The notes beneath the pieces were generated by a model that did no database searches, was not told where the DNA came from, and saw only the letters and a program-made list of their open reading frames with translations. Made by a program: the position numbers and the translations under genes. Of a DNA stretch of 40,738 bases, positions 6,610 through 35,071 are shown piece by piece (position 1 is the first letter of the stretch; every line of letters begins with the position of its first letter). This stretch comes from a virus. Its lineage: Duplodnaviria; Heunggongvirae; Uroviricota; Caudoviricetes. The stretch lies in the IMG/VR virus record IMGVR_UViG_640753023_000013. One strand, written 5' to 3'.

Positions 6610-6624
6610 TTACCTTTCAGGTAA
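6610..6624. promoter_or_regulatory. Operator palindrome TTACC-TTTCA-GGTAA (site 1, perfect)
   Basis: Between tailspike start and the LexA-box gene. Confidence 0.6.
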
Positions 6625-6661
6625 TTTGCAAAACGTGCTGGATAGCAAACAAATTATTTGC

Positions 6662-6681
6662 TACTGTATAAATATACAGTT
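6662..6681. promoter_or_regulatory. LexA (SOS) box
   Basis: TACTGTATAAATATACAGTT, 18/20 match to consensus TACTGTATATATATACAGTA, 20 bp upstream of the ATG at 6701. Confidence 0.8.
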
Positions 6682-6700
6682 ATTGCATGGAGAAGATAAG

Positions 6701-6958
6701 ATGCAGCAGTATCACTATCCACTGGAAGACGGATTTACCGAAAGGATTCACACGCCGGGAGGCGTCAGGTCACTGGTGGAGGGATCGCACTTGATGAAAT
6801 TACTCCGGGATCTCGATAAGGATGGATTTAATGTCGATGGCCCACTTGCCGAACTGACTGCACTGATTAACTACGTCACCAGCTCACAGATGTCTATGCG
6901 GGATCTGCAAACACATCTCGACTATTGTGCCGAACAATTACGAAAACAAACCAGATAA
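6701..6958 (+). CDS. Small antirepressor-related protein (homolog of the C-terminal domain of the downstream BRO-N protein)
   Basis: ATG with GGAGAAG RBS; residues 20-85 align with the C-terminus of the 7274-7969 product (LMxLL, DG, RDxQTH); ORF track start 6578 rejected. Confidence 0.6.
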   Translation: MQQYHYPLEDGFTERIHTPGGVRSLVEGSHLMKLLRDLDKDGFNVDGPLAELTALINYVTSSQMSMRDLQTHLDYCAEQLRKQTR

Positions 6959-7092
6959 GGTTTGCAATTACCAAGTGGAGTGCTTATATTTACCTTTGAG
7001 ATAAATTTACATCGCACTCCTCTTGTGCCATAGTAATCGGGCACTGGCAAAATCCAGTGCCGGGATTGGCGTCCCGGATTACTAAAAGGCGC

Positions 7093-7118
7093 ATTCACCG
7101 CGCAAGCGGTTTTTTTAT
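7093..7118 (+). terminator. Short hairpin plus T-run in the leader of the BRO-N gene
   Basis: CCGCgcaaGCGG followed by ttttttt. Confidence 0.4.
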
Positions 7119-7273
7119 GCGTATAGCACGGCCACATTCGTATTATGGTGGGCTGTGTGGGGGCACCGAAAGGTGCGCCGGGTCCTTTTAGCCGGTTACG
7201 CCAACCCTGCACAGTTCACCACCAACCGATTGGCGTCGGTAGTGGTGATTAACCAGACTAAAAGGTAACCACT

Positions 7274-7969
7274 ATGACAGCTACAAAAAGCACGTCCATT
7301 TTTTCTTTCGAATCCCAAGCCGATATACGGGTAATCGTCATTAATGGTGAGCCATGGTTTATCGCTTCAGATGTTTGTCGGGCTATAGGCATAGCAAACC
7401 ATCGAGATGCTGTTCGAAAACTTGATGATGATGAGAAGGGCGTCGCTTCAACCGACACCCCTGGCGGTGAGCAAGAATCGATCATCATCTCCGAGTCAGG
7501 CCTCTACACACTGATCCTCCGCTGCCGCGACGCAGTGACACCAGGCACTATCCCCTACCGCTTTCGTAAATGGGTTACAGGTGAGGTTCTTCCTCAGATC
7601 CGCCGCACCGGAAGCTACATTAAAAACTCGCTCCCGCAGGAAGAACGCATAAAGATGGTTGCCGACCAGGTAGCCAACGCCACGGCGTCAGCAGTAATGC
7701 AGGCGATGAAGATAGAGAACAAAACCTACAGCGCCCCGCTGAAGCCCGGCTACCGCAGCCTGATTCACTCGCCGTCTGGTGTTCTCGGCCTGACGGAAAA
7801 CTCACTGCTGATGAATCTGCTGAACCAGTTACAGGAAGACGGGCACGACGTATCGGGCGCGGCGGCGGAGGTGACCACCATGTTCTGCTACATCGTCGGT
7901 GTGAGTAAATGCCTGCGTGATATCCAGACCCACGCGGAATACATCAACGACAAGGCAGGGTTCTTCTGA
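7274..7969 (+). CDS. BRO-N domain antirepressor-type protein
   Basis: N-terminal Bro-N signature (IRVIVINGEPWFIASDVCRAIG, DDDEKG); C-terminal domain shared with the 6701 gene. Confidence 0.8.
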   Translation: MTATKSTSIFSFESQADIRVIVINGEPWFIASDVCRAIGIANHRDAVRKLDDDEKGVASTDTPGGEQESIIISESGLYTLILRCRDAVTPGTIPYRFRKWVTGEVLPQIRRTGSYIKNSLPQEERIKMVADQVANATASAVMQAMKIENKTYSAPLKPGYRSLIHSPSGVLGLTENSLLMNLLNQLQEDGHDVSGAAAEVTTMFCYIVGVSKCLRDIQTHAEYINDKAGFF

Positions 7970-8041
7970 CGGGCGGCGGCACAGGGATGAGCCTTTAAAT
8001 AATTCTGTACAGATTGCAGACTGGGGGTGAATAGCGTACTA

Positions 8042-8056
8042 TTACCTCAAGGGTAA
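8042..8056. promoter_or_regulatory. Operator palindrome TTACC-TCAAG-GGTAA (site 2, perfect), overlapping a candidate promoter (TTGCAG-N17-TACTAT)
   Basis: 60 bp upstream of the moron gene at 8116. Confidence 0.55.
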
Positions 8057-8115
8057 GAAAGCATTTTTAATCTTCCCTTCAAAACGCGTCCTGTAGCCAA
8101 ACATGGGAGGACGAA

Positions 8116-8748
8116 ATGAGAACAAATACAACAAGAAAAGCGATGCCATACATTATCCCAGAAGCAGATTTCGATAGAAAACTGAACATGTCTGAGAAGA
8201 ACACTAGTCACACCGAAAGCTACTTAGCGAAAGGTGTGGTTGATTTCGTTCTTCCGGGATTCACAACACCTTATGGTTATCGCCTTGTAAAATCTTGTAA
8301 TGGCGATCATTACAGAATGATTACTACCAGCGATACTCCAGAAACGGTGTATGCGGTTAAGTTAATCTTTCGGGAAGATATCGTCGAAGCCAAAAGAACA
8401 TGTACGCAGATCATGGTATGGCGTACGCCTAATGTTATTCATGACCGTGCTGTTCATGGTTTGCCTCAGATTTTTTTTCAGTTCTTCCTAGAGCAATATG
8501 CGATCGTTGTATCTGATGAGCAACAAACAATCGATGGGAGAAGATTCTGGGAAAGAATGATTTCTTGGGCTATAAACACCCCAGGATATAATGTATACGT
8601 TTCAGATGGCTCTGAAGAAGATAGACCTCTTAGCTTCATGACATCATGGGATGATTTCTATAGCCAGTGGGCTGATTTCTGTTGGGGCAGTGATAAAGAT
8701 GTGCATACCCACAGACTACTGGTTATAAGCAAAGATAAACTGCATTAA
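8116..8748 (+). CDS. Hypothetical protein, AT-rich moron with own terminator; no recognisable domain
   Basis: 210 aa, GGGAGG RBS, AT-rich composition unlike neighbours. Confidence 0.65.
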   Translation: MRTNTTRKAMPYIIPEADFDRKLNMSEKNTSHTESYLAKGVVDFVLPGFTTPYGYRLVKSCNGDHYRMITTSDTPETVYAVKLIFREDIVEAKRTCTQIMVWRTPNVIHDRAVHGLPQIFFQFFLEQYAIVVSDEQQTIDGRRFWERMISWAINTPGYNVYVSDGSEEDRPLSFMTSWDDFYSQWADFCWGSDKDVHTHRLLVISKDKLH

Positions 8749-8752
8749 TAGA

Positions 8753-8774
8753 AGCCCGCAGCGCGGGCTTTTTT
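8753..8774 (+). terminator. Rho-independent terminator
   Basis: AGCCCGC-agc-GCGGGCT followed by tttttt. Confidence 0.7.
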
Positions 8775-8846
8775 GTGGACGAAACAAAAGTCAGTGCTAC
8801 ACTCATTGTCGCCACATTGAGGTGGCTTATAGATGGAAATTTCACA

Positions 8847-9639: not shown

Positions 9640-12114
9640 TTATTGCGGAGTGACATCCTGTGGTCGCCACCAGTATGTCTGGTTAAACTCTTTCTTCGAA
9701 CGTTGCTCCATTTTACGCAAATAGCCTGGTGAAAAATACTCCTGCATCTGGTTAAAGATCATGTGATCGAGAGCCGCCTTCAAGTACCAGAGATTCGCAC
9801 CAGGCATCAAACCTTTCCCCAGCTTCACCAGATCACCACCAGTCTGCTCACTCTTCCCTTCCACAGCATTTAACGGTATGCCCTGAGCAATCTTCACTAC
9901 GTCATCAACCAGACCAGCTACCGGGCCAAGCATCGACGCCAGCGCGCCGCTTCCGTACCTAGTGTGATCTGACAATAAAAAGTCACCGTAAAGGCCAAGA
10001 CCACCACCTTTCAGTAGAGCACCAAGCCAGAATTTTGCGGCATCTTCTCCTGTCATCTCTCGAGGATTACGACCAGACGCAAGGTCGTTAAGTTGCTGCG
10101 ACAAAGCGCCAAGAATGGTCGTACTGGCAATAAACGTCGCAATATATGCCGCACGCCCACCAGCAGACGGCATACCCATAGCGCGTGACCAGTGACGCAT
10201 AACAACCGAGATAGGGAACGATTTAAACAGGAAAACACTTCTCGTTAATTCACCTTTCCATGTTCCACGCTGAATACCAGAACCGGTTATCAGTTGCTCA
10301 CGTGCTCCCGGTGTAATAACAGCCATATCAACTTCTTCAGTTACGGCACCGAGCAGTTTACGCATTGCCTCAAATTTCACGCGTTCAGGCTCACCAAGAT
10401 GTTTAACTGCTGAATCAGGGATACGCATAATGCTTTCCGGTGTCAGCATCGTATTATTACCGTTCCCCCAGTCCTCCTGTTTCGCCAGCTTCCATACGCT
10501 CCAGTCTGTGTCAGTAATCCCTTTGCTTTTCAGGATACGAAAATCAGAGTCATCGAGGCTACGAAGGTCTGGTGTCCGTGACACTACTTCTCCCAGGCTT
10601 CCCATCATGGTTACGCCATAGGCGCGCTTGTGCGCATCTGACCATGCTGTAAGCCCACTGGCACGCATTACCGCCGTTGCCGCCCAACGAGACACTGACG
10701 GCCCCATATTATCCATCGCCCAGCGGTTAACGCTGCCAAGTAGAGATTCCATCGCCAGACCAGCGCGGCGCGCCCGCGCAAGTTCTGTACGGTTCGTTGG
10801 GTCCATAGCTTCAAGCTGGTTGCGGAATAACTGGTTCATTGGAAGGTTGGTAACCTTCGCAGACAGATACATGGTTCCAAGATCAGAGAACGATGACAGC
10901 AACGCGGATCCGAGTCTGCTGGCAACCAGCCAGTTGCGGATATTGTCAGACCATCGCGCGATGTGCGGATTCGCTACAGGCTGTGTCTTTCCGGAAATAA
11001 AGTTGTACAGATTCTCTGTGTTGTTCGCCAGCCGCTCGACTTTACCGGTTTTACTCGGGTTAGCTGTTGCCGTTTCTGCCTTCACCTGATCAAGAAGAGA
11101 GCGGAAAACATGATCGGGGTTTGGGCCATATGTTTCCACCAGTGCAATATCTTTACTGATACCTTCCAGGTGACCGACCATGATTTCCCATAGAGAGCGA
11201 TCGCCATAAAGTTGCTGATATTGCAGATAGGAATCTGCATCTTTGAAATGTATCTGTCGTGATGCATTACCACGGTTAGCACGTGCGCCGGAAATTCGCA
11301 TTCCGGTATCAGTAAGCTTATTCAGCCCACCAGTAGCGATCGTGTTATAAGCCTCTCCAAGAAATGAAGACAACTCGGCATCGTTCATCAGTTGTCCATC
11401 GGCTCGGATATAATATTTGCGATCCAGCTTACCTATAACATCGCTAACCCACTTATCCTTTGATACTGCCCCAACCTTTTCCATAGAATGATGTTGAGGG
11501 ATCCCCCAGTTTTCGAGATAGCCAATGTCCCCACCAGCATCATTAAACCGGCGGCGCAGCAGCTCTGTAACTTCTCTCCACGCCTTAGCACCGTTTCTTG
11601 CTTTAGCATTGCCAGTATTTTGCCCCCGCATTTCATATACCAGGTCACGTACGCCCGCTTCATCTTCAAACAGACCAAAAAAGCGAGGATCAACTGCTTC
11701 GAATGCCTCCTGCAATTGACTCAATGCATAATCACGGGTGGCTTTTGTTCTGGATTCAACAGAGAGGAAATTAGATTTACCGTCTGCATTAAAAGCTATA
11801 GTACGGTTAAGAGCGCCAAGTTTCCCATCAGCCCCTTGATAGCTATTGATAAATTTATCCAATCTCTGACGCGCGGCTATAGTGAGAGCCACACGACGTT
11901 TCTTTAATGCCGCTTCTCGCTGTAATTCTTCAGATGCCAATTGTGCTGCTCGATATAGCCGCTCTGATTCGGAAAGTTGTCGCCACGACATAGGGTCATC
12001 ACGAGCAATGGAGCGCATATTTCGATAAATGCGGTCTTCAATGTTCTGTATTTCTCGCGCCGTTAACATGCGCTGCGCCGCCTGCTGAACCGCTTGTATA
12101 CATTCCTGTCTCAT
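9640..12114 (-). CDS. Large internal virion (ejection) protein, 824 aa
   Basis: Size and position in the tail/ejection block; no motif recognised. Confidence 0.55.
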   Translation of the reverse strand: MRQECIQAVQQAAQRMLTAREIQNIEDRIYRNMRSIARDDPMSWRQLSESERLYRAAQLASEELQREAALKKRRVALTIAARQRLDKFINSYQGADGKLGALNRTIAFNADGKSNFLSVESRTKATRDYALSQLQEAFEAVDPRFFGLFEDEAGVRDLVYEMRGQNTGNAKARNGAKAWREVTELLRRRFNDAGGDIGYLENWGIPQHHSMEKVGAVSKDKWVSDVIGKLDRKYYIRADGQLMNDAELSSFLGEAYNTIATGGLNKLTDTGMRISGARANRGNASRQIHFKDADSYLQYQQLYGDRSLWEIMVGHLEGISKDIALVETYGPNPDHVFRSLLDQVKAETATANPSKTGKVERLANNTENLYNFISGKTQPVANPHIARWSDNIRNWLVASRLGSALLSSFSDLGTMYLSAKVTNLPMNQLFRNQLEAMDPTNRTELARARRAGLAMESLLGSVNRWAMDNMGPSVSRWAATAVMRASGLTAWSDAHKRAYGVTMMGSLGEVVSRTPDLRSLDDSDFRILKSKGITDTDWSVWKLAKQEDWGNGNNTMLTPESIMRIPDSAVKHLGEPERVKFEAMRKLLGAVTEEVDMAVITPGAREQLITGSGIQRGTWKGELTRSVFLFKSFPISVVMRHWSRAMGMPSAGGRAAYIATFIASTTILGALSQQLNDLASGRNPREMTGEDAAKFWLGALLKGGGLGLYGDFLLSDHTRYGSGALASMLGPVAGLVDDVVKIAQGIPLNAVEGKSEQTGGDLVKLGKGLMPGANLWYLKAALDHMIFNQMQEYFSPGYLRKMEQRSKKEFNQTYWWRPQDVTPQ

Positions 12115-12119
12115 TTAAT

Positions 12120-13922
12120 TTAACCTCTCAAGAAACACGCCACAGCGACATCAAACAGGCTGGAATCCTGTATTGCCTGCTCACTTTCCCTGTTCGCTTC
12201 ATCCAGTGCTTCACGCGCACTGCGCGATTGTGGATTACCATCATCATCCAGCACGGTGATTATCATGTCAGGTGATTCAAGCAGCGAGTCTTCAGCTATG
12301 CGCAAATCAATATCTCCTGCCTGATCTGACATCATTTTTTGTTCTGCCTGTTGCAATATTTTATCAGGCTCAAAAGGAGCTACTTCGTCTGGCGTCCTGA
12401 CCTCTGCTGTTTTATAGAATGAAACAGCCTGAGCATTAAGTTCACTTTCTGCCTGCTGTCTCCGAGCCAGTTCTGCTCGAGCTTCAAAAAACCGACCGCC
12501 AGGCTCATGCGGTGCCAACGCGTTACGAGAAAATTCCAGGCGTTCTTGTGCCTGCCGGATTCGTTGGTCAATATCGCGAAGTCTGGCCTGTTTATCTGAT
12601 CGAGCACGAGATAAAGCCTTACCGCTACCGGCTGGATCTTCTGCAAGAATTTGTGCGCGCTGTTCAGTGAGATTTTCAATAATTCGTTGGCTATTAGCGA
12701 TTTCAGACTGGTAAACCTGTCTATCGCCACGCGGCAAAAGCTGCGCGGCCTGTTCTTCAAGCAACCGATTTTCTATAGCGCGCGCCGTTACTCCATCATC
12801 TACAGATGACAGAGCCTCATTAACTGCCTGAGACAGCAGACTCTTGCGTCCAGGAATTTCACTGAAAGATGCAGACTCAACAATGCTGGCAACGTCTACA
12901 GGTCTCCCCTGGCTAACATCAGACATGGCTTTTCGCAGAGCCTGAATGTGCGAATTACGCGAAAGCACGTTGATCGGCACGCCGGGAGCAATATCAATTT
13001 CAGCATGATGAGCGGCATTCGCCGCCAGTGCAGCATCGATATCAACTGGTGAAAAATTTGGTGCGCTTGTAGACTCGCCGCGAGAGTTAATAAATCTGCC
13101 GACACCACCAAACGCCACCCCAAGAACAGCATCAATAGCAATTGCCTGTCGATCCAACACATCATACTGGTTAGCCATTTCGCTATAGCCACCATCACGA
13201 AGCGTTTTTGCAGTAAGCCCACGCTGTGCCATACCGAACGCAATATTTGTACCTGCGGCATAGGCAATATCTGGCGTTGCACGTACTGCTGTTGCTGCGG
13301 CGCGTCGCACTGAACTTTCACCCGTCCGCGCAAGCTGAGCCGCCACACCTTCCGCCAGCGCACCACCAGCACGTAACCAGAGGCTCATAGGGATCAGTGC
13401 TCCGGCACCAGCAGTAATACCCTGCACTAATCCCGCTTCCTGCGCCGTCCTGAAATCAACACCCTGTGCTGTAAGCCGTTCAAACTCAGAAAAACCCTGT
13501 AGAGAAGTTACCGCCGCAGCACCTCCGACCGGACCACCGAGCGTTGTACCGACAACAGCCTGCCCGCCCATATCGAACACCCCATAAAGGACCTGCCCGG
13601 CGGTTCCGGTTGTCGCGGCATCAGGCGTCAGCCGCTTAACCTGCTGCTCTGCTAGTTTTCTCTGCTCAGCAATGTATGAAACTGAAGTGTCATTGATCGA
13701 GGTGTTTTCGTTAACAAACTGAGCAATCGGGGATACGATTTTATCCATCCCTGCCCATAGCAACTGATCTGGCTTTGCCACCAGCCCGGAGTACAAACCA
13801 GACAATGCCGCTCCTACAGCATTGTCGAAAAAACCAACATCGCTGTTAAAGCCAGCTGGATTTGATGCTGCTTCGTCAAGCTGCTGATTCTGGTTTACTG
13901 GATTAAGGCCAAAGTAACTCAT
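12120..13922 (-). CDS. Internal virion (ejection) protein, 600 aa
   Basis: Synteny; Ala/Gly-rich central region. Confidence 0.55.
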   Translation of the reverse strand: MSYFGLNPVNQNQQLDEAASNPAGFNSDVGFFDNAVGAALSGLYSGLVAKPDQLLWAGMDKIVSPIAQFVNENTSINDTSVSYIAEQRKLAEQQVKRLTPDAATTGTAGQVLYGVFDMGGQAVVGTTLGGPVGGAAAVTSLQGFSEFERLTAQGVDFRTAQEAGLVQGITAGAGALIPMSLWLRAGGALAEGVAAQLARTGESSVRRAAATAVRATPDIAYAAGTNIAFGMAQRGLTAKTLRDGGYSEMANQYDVLDRQAIAIDAVLGVAFGGVGRFINSRGESTSAPNFSPVDIDAALAANAAHHAEIDIAPGVPINVLSRNSHIQALRKAMSDVSQGRPVDVASIVESASFSEIPGRKSLLSQAVNEALSSVDDGVTARAIENRLLEEQAAQLLPRGDRQVYQSEIANSQRIIENLTEQRAQILAEDPAGSGKALSRARSDKQARLRDIDQRIRQAQERLEFSRNALAPHEPGGRFFEARAELARRQQAESELNAQAVSFYKTAEVRTPDEVAPFEPDKILQQAEQKMMSDQAGDIDLRIAEDSLLESPDMIITVLDDDGNPQSRSAREALDEANRESEQAIQDSSLFDVAVACFLRG

Positions 13923-16432
13923 TGCGGAATATCTCCGGAGAATCTCTGACGCTTCTGTGTCAGATTAAGAACAACGGGAGAACCATCATCTTTCAGCAGA
14001 TAACCAGTACCAAGTTTCACCAGGTACTGACTATCGCCGTAACTTTGCAAACCATACTGACCAGGCGGTGTTTTTATCCCGGAGCCGACAACTTGTTCAT
14101 TCCAAGCCTGATTAACCTGCTTATCGAATTGCTCTGCAGACATTCCCCACGGCAAAAGGACATTCCCCATTCCGTTATAGTCATGCACACCACCTGTAGC
14201 TACGTTAACAGCCTGTTTCCAGACATCATTGTCAATTTCGCCTGATACCACGCCTTTTTTCGCCATCACACCAGCGTAATAATCCTTTGCGATCTCGTAT
14301 GCCATTGATGCGCCCTGAGCGTCACCAGCAAATGCATCCTTCACCATGTCAGAAAACTCAAGGCGAAGATCAGCATCTTTAGGCATCGGAATACCTTTCG
14401 CATCATCAGTACCTTTACGAGCCGCCGCGCCAGCAAGAATTGTCTGCGCAGCGGTTTCAGGAGACACGGAAACATCCGGATTAAACCAGTTTTTTTCTGC
14501 CAAAATACCACCAGGCTTATCCATCAGTATCCCAGCAACGGCAGCAGATGGAGCGTTGGCACTGATCTGCTGTAGTGCTGACATATACACCTGCCCACCA
14601 CCAGTGCTCTGCCTGATGGTATCGAGATATGCTGCCTGTTGGGAAACTGGAGCATCACGAAAGAAAACACCGATCTGATTGGCCTCGTCTTTGGAAAAGA
14701 ACGTCAGTGGAGTGCCATATGACTTAGCAAGGTCACTGACCTGAGCGGCACGCAAGGCAACGCTCTGTCCAAAGTTATCCTTATTGCTCATGTCGATAGG
14801 CTTTGCCTGTCCGGAGGCAAGAGAGAACTGCACAGGATCCGACTGCCGCTGCTTTATCACCTGATTTGCAGCCGAAACAACGTTGTCATAAAGAGTTGCG
14901 CGTGCCGCATACCCCTCCCCTGTATCACCAGTATCCGGGCGTAATTGCTCAACATATGCTGTAATGCTGCTTGTCGGCATGTTGCGGAAAGAGCCTATAT
15001 ACTGTCCGGCGATCTGCGTATTCTTAAACTCGGTATATCGCAGGTTTCCTTCTCTGACTCCATAAGCTGCAATAAAATCATCCTCACCAGGTGGGTTAGG
15101 AAATTCAATGCCACGCATATACGCAGCCGTCGCATCGCGAACCCGGCTGTCGAGCATCGTTTTATATTCAGCCTGCTGTTGTCTGGCTAGTGCATCAGTC
15201 TGTCGCAACACGCTGGCCTGATCTGATTCACTTAAAGCATCGAACCAGGCTACACCGGTATAACGTTTATTTTTTGTCGGTAGCTGAGAAAGCCCCAGCG
15301 CAGCACTAACACCTGCAGTTAACTGCTGATCACTGTATGGCTGGCTACCGTTTTCATGATGGATAATGGCTGCACAAAGCGCCTTCAGGGTATCAGGATT
15401 TGATGCATCGAGAGGCTCATCAGCAGAAACGCCAAGTTGTTCGCACACTGCTTTGATATACGACATAGTGTCATTTTTATCAGTAGGCGGTGCCCAGCGA
15501 TTAATTATCTCGCTGACGGTATCAATACCCTGCCGCTGATACGACATCAGGTTCCGCCCTAATGCACGAATACCGTGTTCAGGGGTTTCGAATTTGGCAA
15601 AGCGACCATCATCACCAGTCTGCCCAACCCACGGATTAGTTTTGCTGTATTCAAGATTGCCGGGGTTATTGTTGCGTATACCGCGGGTACGATCGGAAGA
15701 GCCACTATCTGCTACAGCACGGCGAGAACCAGCAGCAGTATCGCTTAACTCGCCGTTTTGCTGTCTTACCTGAAGATAGTTTGCTCCAATAGCATTTTGA
15801 GCAGTTGCTTTTGCTGTTGCTTCTTTAAACTCGATTTTCTTGGCCTGGATTTGCTCGTCACTCCAGCCATGTGCAATGCCGTAATCCTCAATTTGCTGGA
15901 AAGTTTGCTTATTAGCCAATACGTATGCGGCGTTGTCGCCATACAATGCTGCGGCATTTTTACCATTGTTCAGCAGCGTAGCCTGAAACTGGCCTTCTTC
16001 GTAGGCATTTATTTGCCCTATCTCGTGCCGCCCGGCCTGCGTAGTGAACTGAATGCGCTGCTGCTGCGCCTGCTGCATGAAAGCATTACGAGCCTGTTCA
16101 TCCGGCAGCGACATAGCCAGTTGTTCGACCTGAGCATCAAACTTCTGCGTATACTCCTGACCTTTTCCAATAGCATTTTTCCCTTTCAGGTTAAGCAAAC
16201 CTGTTTCAGGGTTATTCAGCAGATCGCTGCTTATCTGGCTTAAGCTAAGAGAAGCATCCTGAGCCATAGCAACATTCGCACGCTGTTTTGCCTGCGCAAT
16301 AATACCTGCATATTGCTCTGCAACATCGCCAAGTACATCACCGACATTTGGTGTCTGAAACGATGAGAATCCCTGCGTCGAAATCCCTCTGCTCTGAACC
16401 TGACGGCCCGATGTTGTTGGTACAACTGGCAT
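13919..16432 (-). CDS. Large internal virion protein, 837 aa, with conserved RGIRNNNPGNL motif segment
   Basis: Synteny; overlaps neighbours by 4 nt. Confidence 0.55.
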   Translation of the reverse strand: MPVVPTTSGRQVQSRGISTQGFSSFQTPNVGDVLGDVAEQYAGIIAQAKQRANVAMAQDASLSLSQISSDLLNNPETGLLNLKGKNAIGKGQEYTQKFDAQVEQLAMSLPDEQARNAFMQQAQQQRIQFTTQAGRHEIGQINAYEEGQFQATLLNNGKNAAALYGDNAAYVLANKQTFQQIEDYGIAHGWSDEQIQAKKIEFKEATAKATAQNAIGANYLQVRQQNGELSDTAAGSRRAVADSGSSDRTRGIRNNNPGNLEYSKTNPWVGQTGDDGRFAKFETPEHGIRALGRNLMSYQRQGIDTVSEIINRWAPPTDKNDTMSYIKAVCEQLGVSADEPLDASNPDTLKALCAAIIHHENGSQPYSDQQLTAGVSAALGLSQLPTKNKRYTGVAWFDALSESDQASVLRQTDALARQQQAEYKTMLDSRVRDATAAYMRGIEFPNPPGEDDFIAAYGVREGNLRYTEFKNTQIAGQYIGSFRNMPTSSITAYVEQLRPDTGDTGEGYAARATLYDNVVSAANQVIKQRQSDPVQFSLASGQAKPIDMSNKDNFGQSVALRAAQVSDLAKSYGTPLTFFSKDEANQIGVFFRDAPVSQQAAYLDTIRQSTGGGQVYMSALQQISANAPSAAVAGILMDKPGGILAEKNWFNPDVSVSPETAAQTILAGAAARKGTDDAKGIPMPKDADLRLEFSDMVKDAFAGDAQGASMAYEIAKDYYAGVMAKKGVVSGEIDNDVWKQAVNVATGGVHDYNGMGNVLLPWGMSAEQFDKQVNQAWNEQVVGSGIKTPPGQYGLQSYGDSQYLVKLGTGYLLKDDGSPVVLNLTQKRQRFSGDIPQ

Positions 16433-16444
16433 CTTATTATCCCC

Positions 16445-25404: not shown

Positions 25405-25418
25405 TTCAATGACTCCGG

Positions 25419-25625: not shown

Positions 25626-25715
25626 ATCAATGACTCCGTACGCAATTAAATTATTACCAATTTAACCACATATGATTTATTTATCGTAGATAGTTGACAT
25701 TTAACGCACAAATTA

Positions 25716-25730
25716 TTACCTTTCAGGTAG
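25716..25730. promoter_or_regulatory. Operator palindrome TTACC-TTTCA-GGTAg (site 3, one mismatch), next to a TTGACA -35-like hexamer at 25694-25699
   Basis: Same core and flank as site 1. Confidence 0.5.
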
Positions 25731-26327: not shown

Positions 26328-26708
26328 ATGAACGACCAGCAAATCGAAAAAGAAATTGTTGAGAAAGGCAAAACGGCACCGCGAATCACTCCTCAGCACA
26401 TCGAAGACGTGATTAAAAGCGAGCATTACTTTACTGCTTATGATGGACGTAATGGTGCAATTTCCAGCAACGAATATTGTGGCAGAGAAAAACCAGAAGA
26501 AGGTGATCGTGATTTATCACCATTGAAGTTGCTCACTTTCTGCGTACTGGTGCTGAAGAATGGCTTCACCGTCACCGGAGAGAGCGCCTGTGCAAGCCCG
26601 GAAAATTTTGATGCAGAAATTGGTCGGAAGATTGCCCGGCAGAATGCTGTAAACAAAATCTGGATGCTTGAAGGTTACTTGCTGAAGCAGAAGTTAAGCG
26701 AGCAATAA
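26328..26708 (+). CDS. Phage protein of the gp49/gene-66 type (unknown function)
   Basis: 126 aa on the opposite strand to its neighbours; family assignment from recalled similarity only. Confidence 0.55.
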   Translation: MNDQQIEKEIVEKGKTAPRITPQHIEDVIKSEHYFTAYDGRNGAISSNEYCGREKPEEGDRDLSPLKLLTFCVLVLKNGFTVTGESACASPENFDAEIGRKIARQNAVNKIWMLEGYLLKQKLSEQ

Positions 26709-26798: not shown

Positions 26799-28274
26799 TT
26801 AAGCATAGGGATCGTAATCTGTGATGGCCTTGCCTTGCTGGTTCTGCTGCCCGGGAATTCGCAGACGCTTCGACACAGGGAACGCAAACGTCAGCAGTAG
26901 CGCATCGCCTTTACCCGGCGAACGCCCAAGTCGCTCTTTGATATCTTCCTTCGGTTCGATAACGATTTTACCGTCCACGCGAACTTTGTACTCTGCCGCC
27001 GACAGGTCGTCCGCTGTTTCCTGGTCATCCAGCATGCCGCCCAGCCTCAGCCATGTCTTGCATGAGTTGAACATCTCCCCACGCTTGTTAAGCATCTGCG
27101 GGTCAGTAGACGCGCCACCGAACGGAACAAGTTGCCATGTACGCCCCCAACCGTCACCGATTGACTTCAGACCGGTACCGTAACCGAAGTCGATGAACAC
27201 CGCGTCAGCCTGGTACTGGTCTTCAAAGTCAGCGATACGCTTCGCCATAATCAGATCGTCGGTGGTCTTGTTGCCAGTCCACAGCACCTTACTGTGTAGC
27301 CCCTGCCGCAGGTATATCACAGCGTCATCAACGCCGGAGTATGCCGGGTCAACGCCGATTATCACCGGAGAATGTGCAACCTGCGCAGCGGTTACCACCC
27401 GTTTCATTGCCTCGTCAGTAAGACCGGTAGGGATAAACTGCAATTCAGATGCATCAGGGAATATGCCACGCACACGGATTTTAACGAAGTCGCTGTCTTC
27501 CCCGTAGTCATCAACCCATTTCTGCAACTGCTGTTTGTTGGTACCTTCCACCGTCCGACTGTCAATCTGCGCAGTTTTCCAGCGGTGTTTATACTTGCGG
27601 AAACATTCACGGAAACGTCCGGTATTACGCGTCGGGTTTCCGAACGCCACCCAGATAATCTCAGTGTCTTCGTCCGTTAGCGCACCCTCGGCAACTTCCC
27701 ACACCAGATCCGCAATGTTCGACGCTTCATCGAATACCACGATGATGCGTTTGCGCTCGTTGTGTAGTCCGGCGAATGCCTCAGTGTTGTGCTCAGACCA
27801 GGGTATTGCGTCAGCCCGCCACCGCTTGTCGTGCCCTGGGTCATTGCTGTACATCGCGGTAGCAGTACAGGTAAACCAGTCTTTCGTGATAGCAAGGTTC
27901 GACCACTTGATAATTTCCGGCCAGGTCTTCGTTCGTAGCTGGTTGTCGGTGTTGGCGGTCACCACGACCTTACAATCCTCGCAAGTGGACATGCCCCAGT
28001 TGATCAGCATTGAGATGAATGCGGATTTACCAATACCGTGACCAGAAGCGCGTGCCAGCATAAGCGGCTGATAGCGCGTCTCTGGATTCTGCAGGTGATC
28101 ACGTATCTCTCGGAACGCATCAGCCTGCCATTGACGTGGGCCGGTAGCATGTGCCAGTTCAGTCCCCTCTTCCCCCCACGGGAACGCATAGAGGGCATAG
28201 CCAAGCGGATCGTGAGTGAACCCTGCAATATCCTCGATCAACTGCTCTTCAGGAGATAACGCTGTATCTGTCAC
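26799..28274 (-). CDS. Terminase large subunit
   Basis: Walker A-like GHGIGKS, 491 aa, GTG start overlapping terminase small stop. Confidence 0.85.
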   Translation of the reverse strand: MTDTALSPEEQLIEDIAGFTHDPLGYALYAFPWGEEGTELAHATGPRQWQADAFREIRDHLQNPETRYQPLMLARASGHGIGKSAFISMLINWGMSTCEDCKVVVTANTDNQLRTKTWPEIIKWSNLAITKDWFTCTATAMYSNDPGHDKRWRADAIPWSEHNTEAFAGLHNERKRIIVVFDEASNIADLVWEVAEGALTDEDTEIIWVAFGNPTRNTGRFRECFRKYKHRWKTAQIDSRTVEGTNKQQLQKWVDDYGEDSDFVKIRVRGIFPDASELQFIPTGLTDEAMKRVVTAAQVAHSPVIIGVDPAYSGVDDAVIYLRQGLHSKVLWTGNKTTDDLIMAKRIADFEDQYQADAVFIDFGYGTGLKSIGDGWGRTWQLVPFGGASTDPQMLNKRGEMFNSCKTWLRLGGMLDDQETADDLSAAEYKVRVDGKIVIEPKEDIKERLGRSPGKGDALLLTFAFPVSKRLRIPGQQNQQGKAITDYDPYA

Positions 28275-28867
28275 TGATTACCATCCTGACGTTCTTTGAG
28301 TCGCTTCCTGGCTGCTGCTATGCGATCAGCAATTGTCACTTTCACATTAACATCCAGGCGTTCTTTGAATGCGTTGACGTCGACGTGCTTACCAATCAGT
28401 TCGAGGTTCTTCACCTTGTCAGGCCATTTAATTTTTTTGAGGATTGTCTCTATCGAATCCTCGTTCATGTTCATGATGGTCGATGACAGATCAAAGCCAC
28501 TAAGCGTAGTGCGCCAGATTTTCGGCCACTCGCGGATTGGCTTAAGGCTCCCATCGTCGTTGAGGATGTCGATCACGTCCATCTGGTCGATCTCCACCAG
28601 GCGCATGAGAACGTAATCAGCACTGACGCGCATTCGTTTGTTGCGCTCCTCCATCAACTCGGCAATCCGTTTTTGAATGCGTTCATCGCGCATCATGACA
28701 CTGGCTTTAACTGCCGCTGTATTTGGGGAGAATCCTGCGTTAATCGCTGCCTGAGTCTGGTTTTCAGGCGTTTTGATGTATGACTGGCAATAAGCCTCCT
28801 GCATTGCTGTGAGCGGCTTAAATTGCGTTGATTTGCGTTTATAGGTTTTAGGTTCAGCAGGCATCAT
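28271..28867 (-). CDS. Terminase small subunit (start revised from the TTG at 28945)
   Basis: ATG at 28867/28864 with GGTGG RBS; region 28868-28945 holds an operator palindrome and a terminator. Confidence 0.55.
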   Translation of the reverse strand: MMPAEPKTYKRKSTQFKPLTAMQEAYCQSYIKTPENQTQAAINAGFSPNTAAVKASVMMRDERIQKRIAELMEERNKRMRVSADYVLMRLVEIDQMDVIDILNDDGSLKPIREWPKIWRTTLSGFDLSSTIMNMNEDSIETILKKIKWPDKVKNLELIGKHVDVNAFKERLDVNVKVTIADRIAAARKRLKERQDGNQ

Positions 28868-28884
28868 AACCACCATGGTAATAG

Positions 28885-28899
28885 TTACCGTTGTGGTAA
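28885..28899. promoter_or_regulatory. Operator palindrome TTACC-GTTGT-GGTAA (site 4, perfect), 18 nt upstream of the terminase small start
   Basis: Perfect half-sites. Confidence 0.55.
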
Positions 28900-28910
28900 T
28901 AGTACCATGC

Positions 28911-28936
28911 AAAATAAAGCCGCCATAGTTGGCGGC
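28911..28936 (-). terminator. Rho-independent terminator on the minus strand just upstream of the terminase genes
   Basis: GCCGCC-aactat-GGCGGC followed by tttatttt on the minus strand. Confidence 0.55.
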
Positions 28937-28941
28937 AGTAT

Positions 28942-29154
28942 TCAAAGTCCATCAAATTCATCGTAAAAACTCTCGTCAAGATACCCTTCCCATTTACCGC
29001 GAATGAAAATTACATCCTCGCCGCAAGGGTGCTGACTGTCGATAACTATATCCCTCCTGGCGCAACCATACTTATGCATGAGAAATTTAACCTCTTTCGG
29101 AAAATTTGCTGAGTTATCTCTCATATCTTCAAGGTCGTAGCGTATTTTTGGCAT
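28942..29154 (-). CDS. Hypothetical protein
   Basis: ATG at 29154 with GAAGG RBS (track starts at a GTG at 29175). Confidence 0.45.
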   Translation of the reverse strand: MPKIRYDLEDMRDNSANFPKEVKFLMHKYGCARRDIVIDSQHPCGEDVIFIRGKWEGYLDESFYDEFDGL

Positions 29155-31933: not shown

Positions 31934-31948
31934 TTACCTCTGAGGTAA
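31934..31948. promoter_or_regulatory. Operator palindrome TTACC-TCTGA-GGTAA (site 5, perfect), 4 nt from the DUF1064 start codon
   Basis: Perfect half-sites; overlaps the RBS. Confidence 0.55.
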
Positions 31949-31995
31949 TTAAAAACCACATAAGACACGAAATCAATAGAGTTTAGAATATTTTG

Positions 31996-32010
31996 TTACC
32001 CAACAGGTAA
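31996..32010. promoter_or_regulatory. Operator palindrome TTACC-CAACA-GGTAA (site 6, perfect)
   Basis: Perfect half-sites, 48 bp from site 5. Confidence 0.55.
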
Positions 32011-32046: not shown

Positions 32047-32047
32047 A

Positions 32048-33801: not shown

Positions 33802-33897
33802 TCTGGTTACTATCTTCAATTTTTCCGCCCCTTTTTGTTATTGATATTGGCTATTTTGCACAATTGGAAAATTTGATCAACCAGATTTGGTTTTTTA

Positions 33898-33912
33898 TTA
33901 CCTTTGAGGTAC
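33898..33912. promoter_or_regulatory. Operator palindrome TTACC-TTTGA-GGTAc (site 7, one mismatch)
   Basis: Between the cro-like terminator and the zinc-ribbon/O genes. Confidence 0.5.
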
Positions 33913-33920
33913 GAATAGAT

Positions 33921-33945
33921 ATGAAAAGACCGCCGGGTGGCGGTC
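33921..33945 (-). terminator. Rho-independent terminator after the cro-like gene
   Basis: GACCGCC-gggt-GGCGGTC with a U-run on the minus strand. Confidence 0.5.
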
Positions 33946-33967
33946 TACAGAGGGTTGTAGCTGGATA

Positions 33968-34198
33968 TCATGAGTAGAAGAAGTATGCCAGTTCTGCTTT
34001 TGAGCGCAGCCATTGTCTTGTTTTACAGGCTTTAAAAAGCCCATTCATCAATACCTTACCTGGCATTTTGCGCTTGCCTGTTAAGTGAGTCTGGATATAG
34101 TGACTCGTCGTTCCGGCTTCCTGTGCGAAGGCTTCACGCTCATCCGGAGTAAGTGCAAGCCAGTGCTTTTTGAAATCGAAATGTCCGTTATCGCTCAT
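33968..34198 (-). CDS. Cro-like small DNA-binding protein
   Basis: 76 aa, divergent from the repressor gene. Confidence 0.55.
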   Translation of the reverse strand: MSDNGHFDFKKHWLALTPDEREAFAQEAGTTSHYIQTHLTGKRKMPGKVLMNGLFKACKTRQWLRSKAELAYFFYS

Positions 34199-34234
34199 AG
34201 CTATTGCCTGATATTTATTTCAGATAATAAATAT

Positions 34235-34297
34235 TCACCCATAAGGTAACAAAAATCAAGGATAGTTACCTATGAGGTGCATTTACCTGTTGGGTAA
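34235..34297. promoter_or_regulatory. Immunity operator cluster: three palindrome sites (34235-34249, one mismatch; 34266-34280, two mismatches; 34283-34297, perfect)
   Basis: Three copies of TTACC-N5-GGTAA in the 154-bp repressor/cro intergenic region. Confidence 0.65.
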
Positions 34298-34352
34298 TAT
34301 TGCTTTAAATTGAATCATCTACTGATTCATATATGAGGCGATTTTCCAGAAA

Positions 34353-34937
34353 ATGAAAAGTATCCAGGACGTCCGCAGGCAAAATCTCAACGACTTGATC
34401 GACCGTGAATTCAATGGTGTTCAGACGCGGATGGCAGAAAAACTTGGAACTCAGGCAAATCTGGTAAACCGCTGGGCTCTTGGCAAGAAGGTTATCGGCG
34501 ACCAGGTTGCGCGAAAAATTGAAGCTGCCGCCAATAAACCACGTAACTGGCTTGATATCGATCGCTCGCTTTCTCAGGAAGGTTTTCAGCCTGTCGGCCC
34601 GAGCGATATAGGTCAGCTGGCGGCTCACAACCTGGAACGCTGGATGAGCGAAAGCCGCGACCTTTCAACACAGGGAAAACTTCACCGCGCATCCGGCGTC
34701 GCCCAGGTGACAATCAGCCGCCTGTTAAACAATGAGGTCAGCGTTTCCATTTCCACCCTGGAGAATGTTGCATCCGCATTCGGGCGTCACGGATATGAAC
34801 TACTGATTCACCCGCACGACCCTGCGACTATCAACTATGACCGCTCACGCTACGCATTGTTACCCGAAACCGAGAAAGCAAAGATCGAAAGTTACATTGA
34901 ATTTGTCATCAACCAGAACGAAAAAAGCAAACAATAA
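34353..34937 (+). CDS. Prophage repressor with two HTH (XRE-type) domains and no S24 peptidase domain
   Basis: Two HTH-like segments (QTRMAEKLGTQANLVNRW and LHRASGVAQVTISRLL); no Ala-Gly/Ser-Lys self-cleavage module. Confidence 0.7.
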   Translation: MKSIQDVRRQNLNDLIDREFNGVQTRMAEKLGTQANLVNRWALGKKVIGDQVARKIEAAANKPRNWLDIDRSLSQEGFQPVGPSDIGQLAAHNLERWMSESRDLSTQGKLHRASGVAQVTISRLLNNEVSVSISTLENVASAFGRHGYELLIHPHDPATINYDRSRYALLPETEKAKIESYIEFVINQNEKSKQ

Positions 34938-34957
34938 AACTATATTTTTCAGTAAGT

Positions 34958-34982
34958 AAGCCGCCTCATGGCGGCTTTTTTA
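34958..34982 (+). terminator. Rho-independent terminator after the repressor gene
   Basis: AAGCCGCC-tcat-GGCGGCTT followed by ttttt. Confidence 0.75.
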
Positions 34983-34994
34983 TTGCCAGATAGA

Positions 34995-35009
34995 TTACCT
35001 TACGGGTAA
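34995..35009. promoter_or_regulatory. Operator palindrome TTACC-TTACG-GGTAA (site 11, perfect)
   Basis: 20 bp upstream of a TTGACA -35 hexamer. Confidence 0.6.
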
Positions 35010-35028
35010 TTTTTTTAACTCATATCTA

Positions 35029-35057
35029 TTGACACCAAACCAAATAAGCATAATTAT
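35029..35057 (+). promoter_or_regulatory. Candidate sigma70 early-left promoter (TTGACA, 16-17 bp spacer, TAATTA/AATTAT)
   Basis: Consensus -35; -10 candidates directly followed by operator site 12. Confidence 0.4.
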
Positions 35058-35071
35058 TACCTCAACGGTAA
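35057..35071. promoter_or_regulatory. Operator palindrome TTACC-TCAAC-GGTAA (site 12, perfect)
   Basis: Overlaps the -10/+1 region of the early-left promoter. Confidence 0.6.

What the first reader, a model, noticed from the sequence alone, without database searches (positions are those of the whole stretch)
6610..35071. Twelve copies of the palindrome TTACC-N5-GGTAA heading almost every transcription unit
The 15-bp site (conserved 5-bp half-sites, variable spacer) occurs at 6610, 8042, 25716, 28885, 31934, 31996, 33898, 34235, 34266, 34283, 34995 and 35057. Eight copies are perfect; a random 40-kb sequence would be expected to hold about 0.04. All are intergenic. Three lie in the repressor/cro intergenic region, two flank the early-left promoter, and the rest precede the tailspike/antirepressor region, the moron gene, the tRNA module, the terminase genes, the nin-like block and the replication genes. 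Because the spacer (the loop, if read as RNA) is not conserved, a dimeric DNA-binding protein is more likely than a boxB-like RNA element. A repressor that also sits on late and cargo promoters resembles the dispersed-operator arrangements of P1 C1 or mycobacteriophage L5 stoperators, not the two-operator lambda scheme.
Basis: partly seen in the sequence, partly recalled or inferred. Interest (0 to 1): 0.8.

Follow-up and report, generated by a model that had tools for sequence, protein, structure and literature searches.

The report
Phage repressor operators across a prophage
The repeated palindrome TTACC-N5-GGTAA is real and is almost certainly the binding site of this ε15/phiV10-type prophage's main repressor, placed at nearly every promoter; the same scattered sites are already annotated in the public ε15 genome record, so this is a rediscovery.

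Summary
There are 8 perfect and 13 one-mismatch-or-better copies (0.02 and 0.65 expected), all in the roughly 7% of the window that is non-coding.

The window is an E. coli prophage of the genus Uetakevirus, 97-99% identical to phiV10. Its 194-aa repressor (34353-34937) is a full-length homologue of the SPC32H repressor Rep (PDB 5D50, E 3.5e-42). Papers describe Rep as a tetramer that binds palindromic DNA and is inactivated by a small antirepressor.

The GenBank record of ε15 already annotates seven ATTACC-N5-GGTAAT sites as repressor-binding sites, before terS, the portal operon, the tailspike, the early-left genes and the nin block. The same sites sit at matching positions in eight relatives from six host genera.

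What I add:
- A conserved operator–promoter–operator unit. The two operators lie 62 bp apart around a sigma-70 promoter.
- A fixed register in which the -10 hexamer ends on the first T of the operator, seen at five promoters.
- A P1 immI-like isrK/C4/antirepressor unit behind site 6990.
- A second motif, CATATNTGGTT, close to most operators.

Binding by Rep is inferred, not shown here. The L5 stoperator analogy is not supported. Novelty is low.

The parts
6610..6624 (.). Operator, perfect (TTACCTTTCAGGTAA). It lies between the tailspike gene (-) and ant (+), 38 bp upstream of the LexA box of ant.
6990..7004 (.). It starts on the last T of the -10 of a promoter (TTGCAA 6962-6967, TATATT 6985-6990) that faces isrK, C4 and the Bro-N/Ant gene. 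The copy is perfect in phiV10 and Tyrion.
8042..8056 (.). Operator, perfect. It starts on the last T of the -10 of a promoter (TTGCAG 8014-8019, TACTAT 8037-8042) before the cargo gene 8116-8748 (phrog_1349, function unknown).
25716..25730 (.). Operator with 1 mismatch. Its left half forms the -10 (TACCTT 25717-25722) of a + strand promoter (TTGACA 25694-25699) facing tRNA-Arg and gene 26328-26708. It lies about 80 bp upstream of the likely portal-operon start on the - strand.
28867..28881 (.). Possible weak second operator before terS (1 mismatch), overlapping the terS ribosome-binding site. It is degenerate in relatives.
28885..28899 (.). Operator, perfect. It follows a terminator (28936-28919) and a conserved TACTAT (28904-28899), upstream of terS (ATG 28864).
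31934..31948 (.). Downstream operator of P_nin, perfect. It overlaps the -10 (TTTAAT 31953-31948, - strand).
31996..32010 (.). Upstream operator of P_nin, perfect. It lies 19 nt before the -35 (TTGATT 31976-31971) and 62 bp from its partner.
33898..33912 (.). Operator with 1 mismatch. It lies after the terminator of the cro-like gene and 17 nt before the -35 (TTGATC 33880-33875) of the replication-gene promoter.
34235..34249 (.). Operator with 1 mismatch, inside the spacer and -10 of the rightward promoter (TTGATT 34259-34254, GAATAT 34236-34231, - strand) that drives the cro-like gene.
34266..34280 (.). Middle operator of the rep/cro region. It has 2 mismatches here and is perfect in ε15, SPC32H and BUCT711.
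34283..34297 (.). Operator nearest rep, perfect and conserved in all six aligned phages.
34995..35009 (.). Upstream operator of the early-left promoter, perfect. It lies 19 nt before the -35 (TTGACA 35029-35034).
35057..35071 (.). Downstream operator of the early-left promoter, perfect. It starts on the last T of the -10 (AATTAT 35052-35057), 62 bp from its partner.
34353..34937 (+). Repressor gene rep (194 aa): an N-terminal helix-turn-helix domain, a second HTH_3-like domain and a C-terminal tetramerisation/Ant-binding region. It has no peptidase S24 domain.
33968..34198 (-). Cro-like small helix-turn-helix protein (76 aa, phrog_35 'transcriptional repressor'), transcribed divergently from rep.
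6689..6958 (+). Small antirepressor gene ant, 86% identical to the annotated SPC32H ant. The start is ATG 6689 or 6701.
6662..6680 (.). LexA box TACTGTATAAATATACAGT directly before ant. The CTGT-N8-ACAG core is conserved in all six phages.
7041..7116 (+). isrK-family small RNA, downstream of the promoter at operator 6990.
7141..7226 (+). C4 antisense RNA (P1/P7 immI type), directly before the second antirepressor gene.
7274..7969 (+). Second antirepressor: a Bro-N domain fused to an Ant-like C-terminal domain.

Best explanation
The TTACC-N5-GGTAA sites are the operators of the prophage's maintenance repressor Rep (34353-34937), a non-cleavable repressor of the SPC32H/ε15 type.

**How it most likely works (inferred).** In the lysogen, pairs of Rep N-terminal helix-turn-helix domains each bind one palindrome. 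Rep is a tetramer with two such pairs, so one tetramer could hold two operators at once. At the early-left and nin promoters the two operators lie exactly 62 bp apart, about six helical turns. One lies upstream of the -35 and one covers the -10/+1, so the promoter would be clamped between them.

Single operators covering the -10/+1 would shut the isrK/C4/Bro-antirepressor unit, a cargo gene and terS. Three adjacent operators between rep and the cro-like gene would shut the rightward promoter and probably set Rep's own level.

Induction does not need Rep cleavage. DNA damage removes LexA from the box in front of ant, and Ant then takes the Rep tetramer apart.

**What is shown.** The motif, its statistics, its positions relative to promoters, its conservation, and the homology of Rep and Ant.

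**What is inferred.** Rep binding to each site, the clamping by one tetramer, and the effect on each promoter.
For: **Motif and location**
- 8 perfect and 13 near-perfect sites against 0.02 and 0.65 expected.
- All lie in the 7% non-coding DNA.

**Rep**
- Rep is homologous over its full length to SPC32H Rep, PDB 5D50, E 3.5e-42.
- It has HTH_3 and no S24 peptidase domain.
- Papers describe SPC32H Rep as a tetramer that binds palindromic DNA sites through N-terminal domain pairs and is disassembled by Ant (PMC9638917). They also describe a looping-type tetramerisation domain (PMC9986798).

**Prior annotation**
- The ε15 record AY150271.2 annotates 7 dispersed ATTACC-N5-GGTAAT sites as 'protein_bind, repressor, lysogeny'.

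**Conservation**
- The same motif occurs at matching positions in ε15, phiV10, SPC32H, Tyrion, Klebsiella BUCT711, a Serratia prophage and a metagenomic relative.
- It is absent from Pseudomonas phage PseuP_224, whose repressor shares only a diverged N-terminal domain.
- N36, R40 and W41 in the Rep helix-turn-helix stretch NLVNRW are invariant in all 22 aligned homologues. The whole stretch is identical in the six phages.

**Promoter architecture**
- In 12 aligned promoters the half-sites, the -35 (TATTGA) and part of the -10 are invariant. The spacers vary. Operator spacing is 62 bp in 11 of the 12 and 63 bp in one.
- Three operators between rep and cro are conserved in position.

**Induction side**
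- Ant is 86% identical to the annotated SPC32H ant, and a LexA box lies in front of it.
Against: - No binding data could be generated. The two primary SPC32H papers and the ε15 genome paper are not in the held library, so I could not check whether the operator sequence was determined by experiment.
- The cro-like protein is as conserved as Rep across these genomes. Co-variation therefore cannot tell which protein reads the site.
- At the tailspike and portal-operon promoters the operator lies roughly 70-80 bp upstream of the likely start, so it would not occlude the core promoter.
- In relatives a copy sits beside lysogenic-conversion genes (ε15 24704, phiV10 24692). These should be expressed in lysogens, which does not fit simple repression at every site.
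- A 62-bp loop is very tight for one tetramer.
Confidence: 0.85

Rival explanations
1. The cro-like protein (33968-34198) is the main or an additional reader of TTACC-N5-GGTAA, as lambda Cro shares operators with CI. The dispersed sites would then serve to turn down early promoters during lytic growth.
For: It is a small helix-turn-helix protein of a 'transcriptional repressor' family. It is transcribed divergently from rep across three operators and is conserved in every genome that carries the motif.
Against: Its helix-turn-helix stretch differs at five residues in the Serratia prophage (AGTTSHYIQTHLTGK against AGTTAKYIMAHTQRK), while the half-sites there are unchanged. A second palindrome, CCATATATGG, sits beside most operators and could be its own site instead. 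Sharing of sites with Rep remains possible.
Confidence: 0.25
2. Some copies act as transcription roadblocks in the manner of L5 stoperators. Rep bound just after a terminator (28885 before terS, 33898 before the replication genes) would stop read-through into downstream operons rather than block initiation.
For: Sites 28885, 33898, 31996 and 34995 each follow an intrinsic terminator within 10-30 bp. No convincing -35 precedes terS.
Against: The sites are palindromic, so they carry no orientation. Sites 31996, 33898 and 34995 lie 17-19 nt upstream of conserved -35 hexamers. A conserved -10-like TACTAT abuts the terS site in the same register as at four other promoters.
Confidence: 0.15
3. The palindromes act as RNA hairpins (boxB-like, RNase III or pause sites) in the transcripts.
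For: Each perfect copy can form a 5-bp stem. The ε15 record lists several predicted RNase III sites and a pausing stem-loop elsewhere in the genome.
Against: Predicted stability is only -1 to -3.5 kcal/mol. The stem bases are invariant rather than co-varying, and the mismatched copies are not compensated. Upstream copies of each pair lie outside the transcript of the promoter they flank.
Confidence: 0.02
4. The sites are read by a host protein, or are inert copies of a duplicated promoter unit.
For: The early-left and nin promoter units are clearly paralogous, so part of the repetition reflects duplication.
Against: The half-sites stay invariant across phages whose flanking sequence has diverged to 40-70% column identity, and across six host genera. 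Such preservation points to selection on a function carried by the phage. I could recall no host regulator with this consensus, but that is memory, not a test.
Confidence: 0.03

Closest known systems
Predicted repressor-binding sites of Salmonella phage ε15 (GenBank AY150271.2; Kropinski et al. 2007, Virology 369:234)
   Same: The motif is the same (ATTACC-N5-GGTAAT) and the dispersed positions match: before terS, the portal operon, the tailspike, the early-left genes and the nin block. The repressor family and the genus (Uetakevirus) are also the same.
   Different: The ε15 record lists 7 of its 11 perfect copies. It omits the three between the repressor and cro-like genes. The phiV10-type phages closest to this window carry no such annotation. 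This window also has copies before the isrK/C4/Bro-antirepressor unit and before a cargo gene that ε15 lacks.
Rep-Ant-LexA switch of Salmonella phage SPC32H (Kim & Ryu 2013 J Virol; Kim et al. 2016 PNAS; PDB 5D50, 5D4Z)
   Same: Rep is a full-length homologue (E 3.5e-42, about 43% identity). Ant is 86% identical. A LexA box precedes ant. SPC32H carries the same motif at the same positions.
   Different: The C-terminal two-thirds of Rep is only about 38% identical. This prophage has a second antirepressor with Bro-N, isrK and C4 that SPC32H lacks. I could not read the primary papers, so I do not know which operators they tested.
Phage P1 C1 repressor with dispersed operators and the immI region (c4 RNA, icd, ant)
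   Same: One repressor controls many separate operons around the genome. An antirepressor operon is preceded by a C4 antisense RNA and headed by a repressor operator. The P1 facts are from my own knowledge.
   Different: P1 operators are asymmetric 17-bp sites and C1 belongs to an unrelated protein family. Here the sites are palindromic and the repressor is a two-HTH tetramer.
Mycobacteriophage L5 gp71 stoperators
   Same: Many copies of a short repressor site lie in intergenic regions across the genome.
   Different: Stoperators are asymmetric, orientation-biased and act on elongating polymerase away from promoters (my own knowledge). These sites are palindromic and locked in register with -35 and -10 elements.
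Lambda OR/OL tripartite operators
   Same: Three adjacent operators lie between divergent repressor and cro-like genes, and there is a separate early-left control region.
   Different: Here the operators also head the replication, nin, terS, antirepressor and cargo units. Induction is through an antirepressor rather than RecA-stimulated cleavage, since Rep has no S24 domain.
Plasmid pLS20 Rco, a tetrameric looping repressor
   Same: PMC9986798 reports that SPC32H Rep shares Rco's tetramerisation fold and domain layout, and links that fold to DNA looping between operator sets. That fits the paired operators here.
   Different: It belongs to a different element (a conjugative plasmid), has different operators, and no looping has been shown for Rep.

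Membership tests
Uetakevirus (ε15/SPC32H-type) Rep operator set | Repressor homologous to SPC32H/ε15 Rep over its full length | tested here: met
   E 3.5e-42 to PDB 5D50 over residues 1-190. The alignment with six phage Reps has 71 invariant columns.
Uetakevirus (ε15/SPC32H-type) Rep operator set | ATTACC-N5-GGTAAT palindromes at the positions annotated as repressor sites in ε15 | tested here: met
   Copies lie before terS, the portal operon, the tailspike, the early-left genes and the nin block in the window and in ε15. Alignments A1-A5 show positional homology.
Uetakevirus (ε15/SPC32H-type) Rep operator set | Small antirepressor Ant under LexA control; repressor without a self-cleavage domain | tested here: met
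   Ant is 86% identical to the annotated SPC32H ant. The LexA box lies at 6662-6680. Rep has no S24 peptidase hit.
Uetakevirus (ε15/SPC32H-type) Rep operator set | Physical binding of Rep to the sites | not testable with these tools
   This needs EMSA, footprinting or ChIP. The primary papers are not held.
P1 C1-type dispersed operators | Asymmetric 17-bp operator read by a C1-family protein | tested here: not met
   The sites are perfect palindromes with 5-bp half-sites. The repressor is an HTH_3 protein homologous to SPC32H Rep.
P1 C1-type dispersed operators | Repressor-controlled immI-type unit with C4 antisense RNA upstream of an antirepressor gene | tested here: met
   Rfam C4 at 7141-7226 scores 77.7 bits against a gathering score of 45. 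It lies between operator 6990 and the Bro-N/Ant gene 7274-7969.
L5-type stoperators | Asymmetric sites with an orientation bias relative to transcription | tested here: not met
   The sites are palindromic.
L5-type stoperators | Location within transcribed regions, away from promoters | tested here: not met
   Ten of the 14 sites lie in a fixed register with promoter-like -35/-10 hexamers, and three more adjoin such sites. The hexamers at the early-left, nin, rightward, replication, 6990, portal-region and terS units are conserved in relatives.
boxB/nut-type RNA hairpins | Stable stem kept by compensatory changes, lying within the transcript | tested here: not met
   The stems give -1 to -3.5 kcal/mol. 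The stem bases are invariant and mismatches are uncompensated. Upstream copies lie outside the transcript of the promoter they flank.

The most novel reading that the evidence does not exclude
Each transcription unit is headed by a copy of one composite control unit, not just an operator. The unit would consist of a terminator, a Rep operator, a promoter carrying a second palindrome (CCATAT[A/G]TGG, within the conserved CATATNTGGTT), and a second Rep operator or lone half-site 62 bp from the first.

One Rep tetramer would clamp the promoter in a 62-bp micro-loop. A second, unidentified regulator (the cro-like protein or a late activator) would read the inner palindrome. Every unit in the genome would then be set by the same two-factor logic.

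As far as I could see from the record and the papers I could read, neither the spacing rule nor the second motif has been described.
Probability: 0.3. Interest if true: 0.5.

Novelty: already known. Interest (0 to 1): 0.27.

Why it matters
It confirms that ε15/phiV10-type prophages, which are common in E. coli O157, Salmonella, Klebsiella and Enterobacter, use one repressor with operators at most promoters. Lambda, by contrast, has only two control regions. This helps in annotating these prophages, in predicting cross-immunity (the half-sites are the same in every relative examined), and in engineering phiV10-based reporter phages. The conserved 62-bp operator pairs give a concrete test of how the unusual Rep tetramer holds DNA. 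One paper states that Rep's repression mechanism has not been extensively characterised (PMC9986798).

Tried and rejected
- **Primary literature.** I tried to read the ε15 genome paper (PMC2698709, PMID 17825342) and both SPC32H papers (PMC3807360, PMC4983836). None is held, so prior knowledge rests on the GenBank feature table and on secondary citations.
- **Co-variation between repressor and operator.** A search of 5.8 billion proteins returned only close relatives (at least 52% identity) with near-identical helix-turn-helix stretches. The two most divergent loci I fetched, a Serratia prophage and a metagenomic contig, still carry TTACC-N5-GGTAA. The test therefore has no power to separate Rep from the cro-like protein. 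The only contrast is a Pseudomonas phage with a diverged N-terminal domain and no motif, which is a weak negative control.
- **Immunity diversifying through the Rep-Ant interface.** I considered that specificity might have moved there because operator specificity is fixed. I rejected this: Ant is 82-86% identical between groups whose Rep C-terminal part is only 38% identical.
- **RNA-hairpin reading.** Rejected on stability and the lack of compensating changes.
- **A lysis-gene operator.** I looked for the copy found upstream of the lysis genes in relatives. It is absent here even at 2 mismatches, because the neighbouring region differs.
- **Promoter scan.** The consensus promoter scan alone was not informative, with 11 hits against 12 expected. 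Promoter calls rest on conservation in the alignments.
- **Sandbox limitation.** Some fetched loci never appeared in the Python sandbox. Scans of relatives were done with the DNA search instead.

Full report

Yes. An exact scan for TTACC-N5-GGTAA finds 8 copies, at 6610, 8042, 28885, 31934, 31996, 34283, 34995 and 35057. Dinucleotide-preserving shuffles give 0.02. With one mismatch allowed there are 13 copies against 0.65 expected.

It aligns with a perfect copy in ε15, SPC32H and BUCT711, so it belongs to the set.

All 14 sites fall in about 2.9 kb of non-coding DNA, 7.1% of the window. The binomial probability is about 1e-16, and the base composition of that DNA predicts 0.003 perfect copies.

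The two sites before terS are intergenic only if terS starts at ATG 28864. That start is conserved with ε15. The phiV10 record instead uses an upstream TTG, equivalent to window 28945.

**2. What is the window?**

It is an integrated prophage of the genus Uetakevirus. The early region is 96.5-99% identical to phiV10, ZX5, TL-2011b and HEMP4, and about 80% identical to ε15. The attachment core AATCATTCCCACTCAAT lies at 1163-1179, and host genes lie to its left (core sequence from PMC9782041).

Gene order matches phiV10 read in reverse:
- lysis genes 1267-3079
- tailspike 3386-6505
- antirepressor region 6689-7969
- tail and head genes 9640-25625
- tRNA-Arg 26053-26129
- terminase 26799-28864
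- nin-like block
- replication genes
- cro-like gene 33968-34198
- repressor 34353-34937
- early-left recombination genes
- integrase 39482-40738

**3. The repressor and its partners**

The 194-aa product of 34353-34937 matches the SPC32H repressor Rep (PDB 5D50) over residues 1-190 with E 3.5e-42. It has an HTH_3 domain and no S24 self-cleavage domain.

Papers I could read describe SPC32H Rep as follows:
- It is a tetramer whose N-terminal domain pairs bind palindromic DNA sites.
- It is taken apart by a tetrameric antirepressor, Ant (PMC9638917).
- It carries a tetramerisation fold shared with the looping repressor Rco of pLS20. Its repression mechanism is described as 'not extensively characterized' (PMC9986798).

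The window also encodes a small Ant (6689/6701-6958) that is 86% identical to the annotated SPC32H ant. A textbook LexA box, TACTGTATAAATATACAGT, precedes it at 6662-6680, and its core is conserved in all six aligned phages. The whole Rep/Ant/LexA switch is therefore present.

**4. The sites are already annotated in ε15**

The feature table of AY150271.2 lists seven 'protein_bind, repressor, lysogeny' sites. Their sequences are ATTACC-N5-GGTAAT. They lie before terS, gp3/portal, the tailspike, the early-left genes (three sites) and the RuvC/nin block.

The ε15 record is incomplete. ε15 has 11 perfect copies, including two of three conserved operators between the repressor and the cro-like gene that are not annotated. 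The phiV10 record has no operator annotation at all.

**5. Conservation**

The motif is strongly over-represented in every relative scanned: 13-18 copies within one mismatch in each of the five complete phage genomes, and 10 and 12 in the two partial loci, against 0.2-0.7 expected. It sits at matching positions in phiV10, SPC32H, Tyrion, Klebsiella phage BUCT711 and ε15. The same holds for a Serratia prophage and a metagenomic relative found through Rep homologues.

Rep identity to the window across these ranges from 100% down to 43%. The helix-turn-helix stretch NLVNRW is almost fixed, with N36, R40 and W41 invariant in 22 sequences.

A Pseudomonas phage whose repressor shares only a diverged N-terminal domain (39% identity, different helix-turn-helix stretch) has no such sites.

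The cro-like protein is equally conserved. Comparison alone therefore cannot say which of the two proteins reads the site.

**6. Anatomy of the control regions**

*Paired operators.* I aligned the early-left and nin promoters of six phages, 12 sequences in all. The invariant columns are the four half-sites, the -35 region TATTGA, and part of the -10. The operator spacers and most other positions vary. The layout is: operator, 19 nt to the -35 hexamer, TTGACA or TTGATT, a 17-nt spacer, then a -10 whose last T is the first T of the second operator. The operator-to-operator distance is 62 bp in 11 cases and 63 bp in one.

*Single operators at the -10.* The same -10/operator register recurs at 6990 (TATATT), 8042 (TACTAT) and 28885 (TACTAT).

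*The rep/cro region.* Three operators are conserved in position. An invariant TTGATTTTT marks the -35 of the rightward promoter. Operator 34235 lies in that promoter's spacer and -10.

*Replication genes.* Site 33898 follows the terminator of the cro-like gene and lies 17 nt before a conserved TTGATC.

*Portal region.* The left half of site 25716 supplies the -10 (TACCTT) of a + strand promoter with a consensus, conserved TTGACA. This promoter faces the tRNA and gene 26328-26708.

*Ant.* Site 6610 lies 38 bp upstream of the LexA box of ant.

The operators are therefore promoter-linked, not free-standing roadblocks.

**7. Mechanism**

The best reading is that Rep binds each palindrome through a pair of N-terminal domains. 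A tetramer can bridge the two operators of a pair. These lie about six helical turns apart, so they face the same side of the DNA, with the promoter enclosed between them. Single operators at the -10/+1 would block initiation directly. Induction runs through LexA release of ant, after which Ant breaks up the tetramer.

Shown here:
- the motif, its statistics and its conservation
- the register of the operators with the promoters
- the homologies of Rep and Ant

Taken from papers: the tetramer, binding to palindromic DNA, and the action of Ant.

Inferred: that these particular sites are the ones bound, that one tetramer spans 62 bp, and the direction of the effect at each promoter.

Two points do not fit simple repression. 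At the tailspike and portal-operon units the operator lies about 70-80 bp upstream of the likely start. In relatives, a copy lies next to serotype-conversion genes that must be expressed in lysogens.

**8. Rivals**

- The cro-like protein may share the sites, as lambda Cro does. This is not excluded.
- A roadblock role for the copies that directly follow terminators (28885, 33898) is possible. It is weakened by their palindromic form and by the adjacent conserved promoter elements.
- An RNA-hairpin role is very unlikely. The stems give only -1 to -3.5 kcal/mol, the stem bases are invariant rather than co-varying, and upstream copies are not in the transcript of the promoter they flank.
- A host-factor role or no function is unlikely, given conservation across six host genera.

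**9. Comparison with known systems**

It is a member of the ε15/SPC32H Rep system. Homology, motif, positions and the Ant/LexA arm were all tested and met. Binding could not be tested.

It works like P1 C1, in that one repressor controls many operons. It even has an immI-like unit: Rfam finds an isrK small RNA (7041-7116) and a C4 antisense RNA (7141-7226) between operator 6990 and a Bro-N/Ant fusion gene. It is not a member of the C1 family, because the operators are palindromic and the protein is unrelated.

It is not like L5 stoperators in site form or placement. It shares lambda's three-operator rep/cro region but extends control to many more units and uses an antirepressor.

**10. Seen along the way**

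A second motif, CATATNTGGTT (core CCATATATGG), occurs 11 times within one mismatch against 2.8 expected. Nine of the 11 copies are non-coding. Most lie at set distances of 23-56 bp from a Rep operator:
- before the tailspike and portal units
- inside the spacers of the early-left and nin promoters
- at the -35 of the replication promoter
- antisense to the end of ant

A further copy precedes the lysis genes, where this window has no Rep operator (section 'tried and rejected').

The pattern repeats in ε15 and Tyrion and is weaker in BUCT711 and the Serratia prophage. It may be the site of a second regulator. I did not resolve it.

**11. Verdict**

Novelty is low because the ε15 record already carries the annotation.

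The added details are the 62-bp operator-promoter-operator unit, the fixed -10/operator register, a fuller site list, the immI-like unit and the second motif. They are modest and would be worth a short experimental follow-up.

Noticed in passing
window 3140-3150(-), 6570-6580(-), 6543-6553(+), 6949-6959(-), 25664-25674(-), 31954-31964(-), 33879-33892, 35038-35048(-): A second conserved motif, CATATNTGGTT (core palindrome CCATATATGG). It has 4 perfect and 7 one-mismatch copies against 2.8 expected, and 9 of the 11 are non-coding. Most copies lie 23, 44-47 or 56 bp from a Rep operator; the copy before the lysis genes has no operator nearby in this window. In the tailspike and portal units it is followed, after 5 nt, by a lone GGTAAT half-site. 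The same pattern is seen in ε15 and Tyrion. It could be the site of a second regulator or a late-promoter element.
   Followed up: partly
window 7041-7116 (+), 7141-7226 (+), 7274-7969 (+): An isrK-family small RNA and a C4 antisense RNA (both well above the Rfam gathering scores) precede a Bro-N/Ant-like fusion antirepressor. This resembles the P1 immI region, and here it is headed by Rep operator 6990.
   Followed up: partly
window 6662-6680 and 6689-6958: A near-consensus LexA box, TACTGTATAAATATACAGT, lies directly before the small antirepressor gene ant. The box core is conserved in all six aligned phages.
   Followed up: yes
window 6701-6958 compared with 34353-34937: The small Ant is 82-86% identical between the phiV10 and ε15/SPC32H groups. 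The part of Rep it is reported to bind (residues 89-194) is only about 38% identical.
   Followed up: partly
window 1-1179: The prophage end. The attachment core AATCATTCCCACTCAAT lies at 1163-1179, with two host lipoprotein-like genes (1-516, 532-1071) to its left. The window stops at the start of the integrase gene, so the other junction is not included.
   Followed up: partly
window 28864-28945: The terS start used in the phiV10 record (a TTG, equivalent to window 28945) would place a terminator and two operators inside the gene. The ATG at 28864, conserved with ε15, is the more likely start.
   Followed up: yes
window 3080-3385; L002 24692-24706; L001 24704-24718: Relatives carry a Rep operator upstream of the lysis genes, beside their O-antigen modification genes. 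This window lacks both that operator (none within 2 mismatches) and the modification gene, while keeping the CATATATGGTT motif.
   Followed up: partly
L001 26882, L002 26870, L003 26960, L004 28568, L005 12620 (beyond the right end of the window): A conserved one-mismatch copy (TTACCnTAAAGGTAT) lies just upstream of the integrase gene, near attP, in all five complete relatives. The equivalent position falls outside this window.
   Followed up: no
window 6949-6959(-) with operator 6990-7004: Read on the - strand, operator 6990 is followed at 45 bp by a CATATNTGGTT-like motif that points antisense into ant. Tyrion has the same arrangement (21393 and 21438). This may be a promoter giving antisense transcription across ant towards the tailspike gene.
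   Followed up: no
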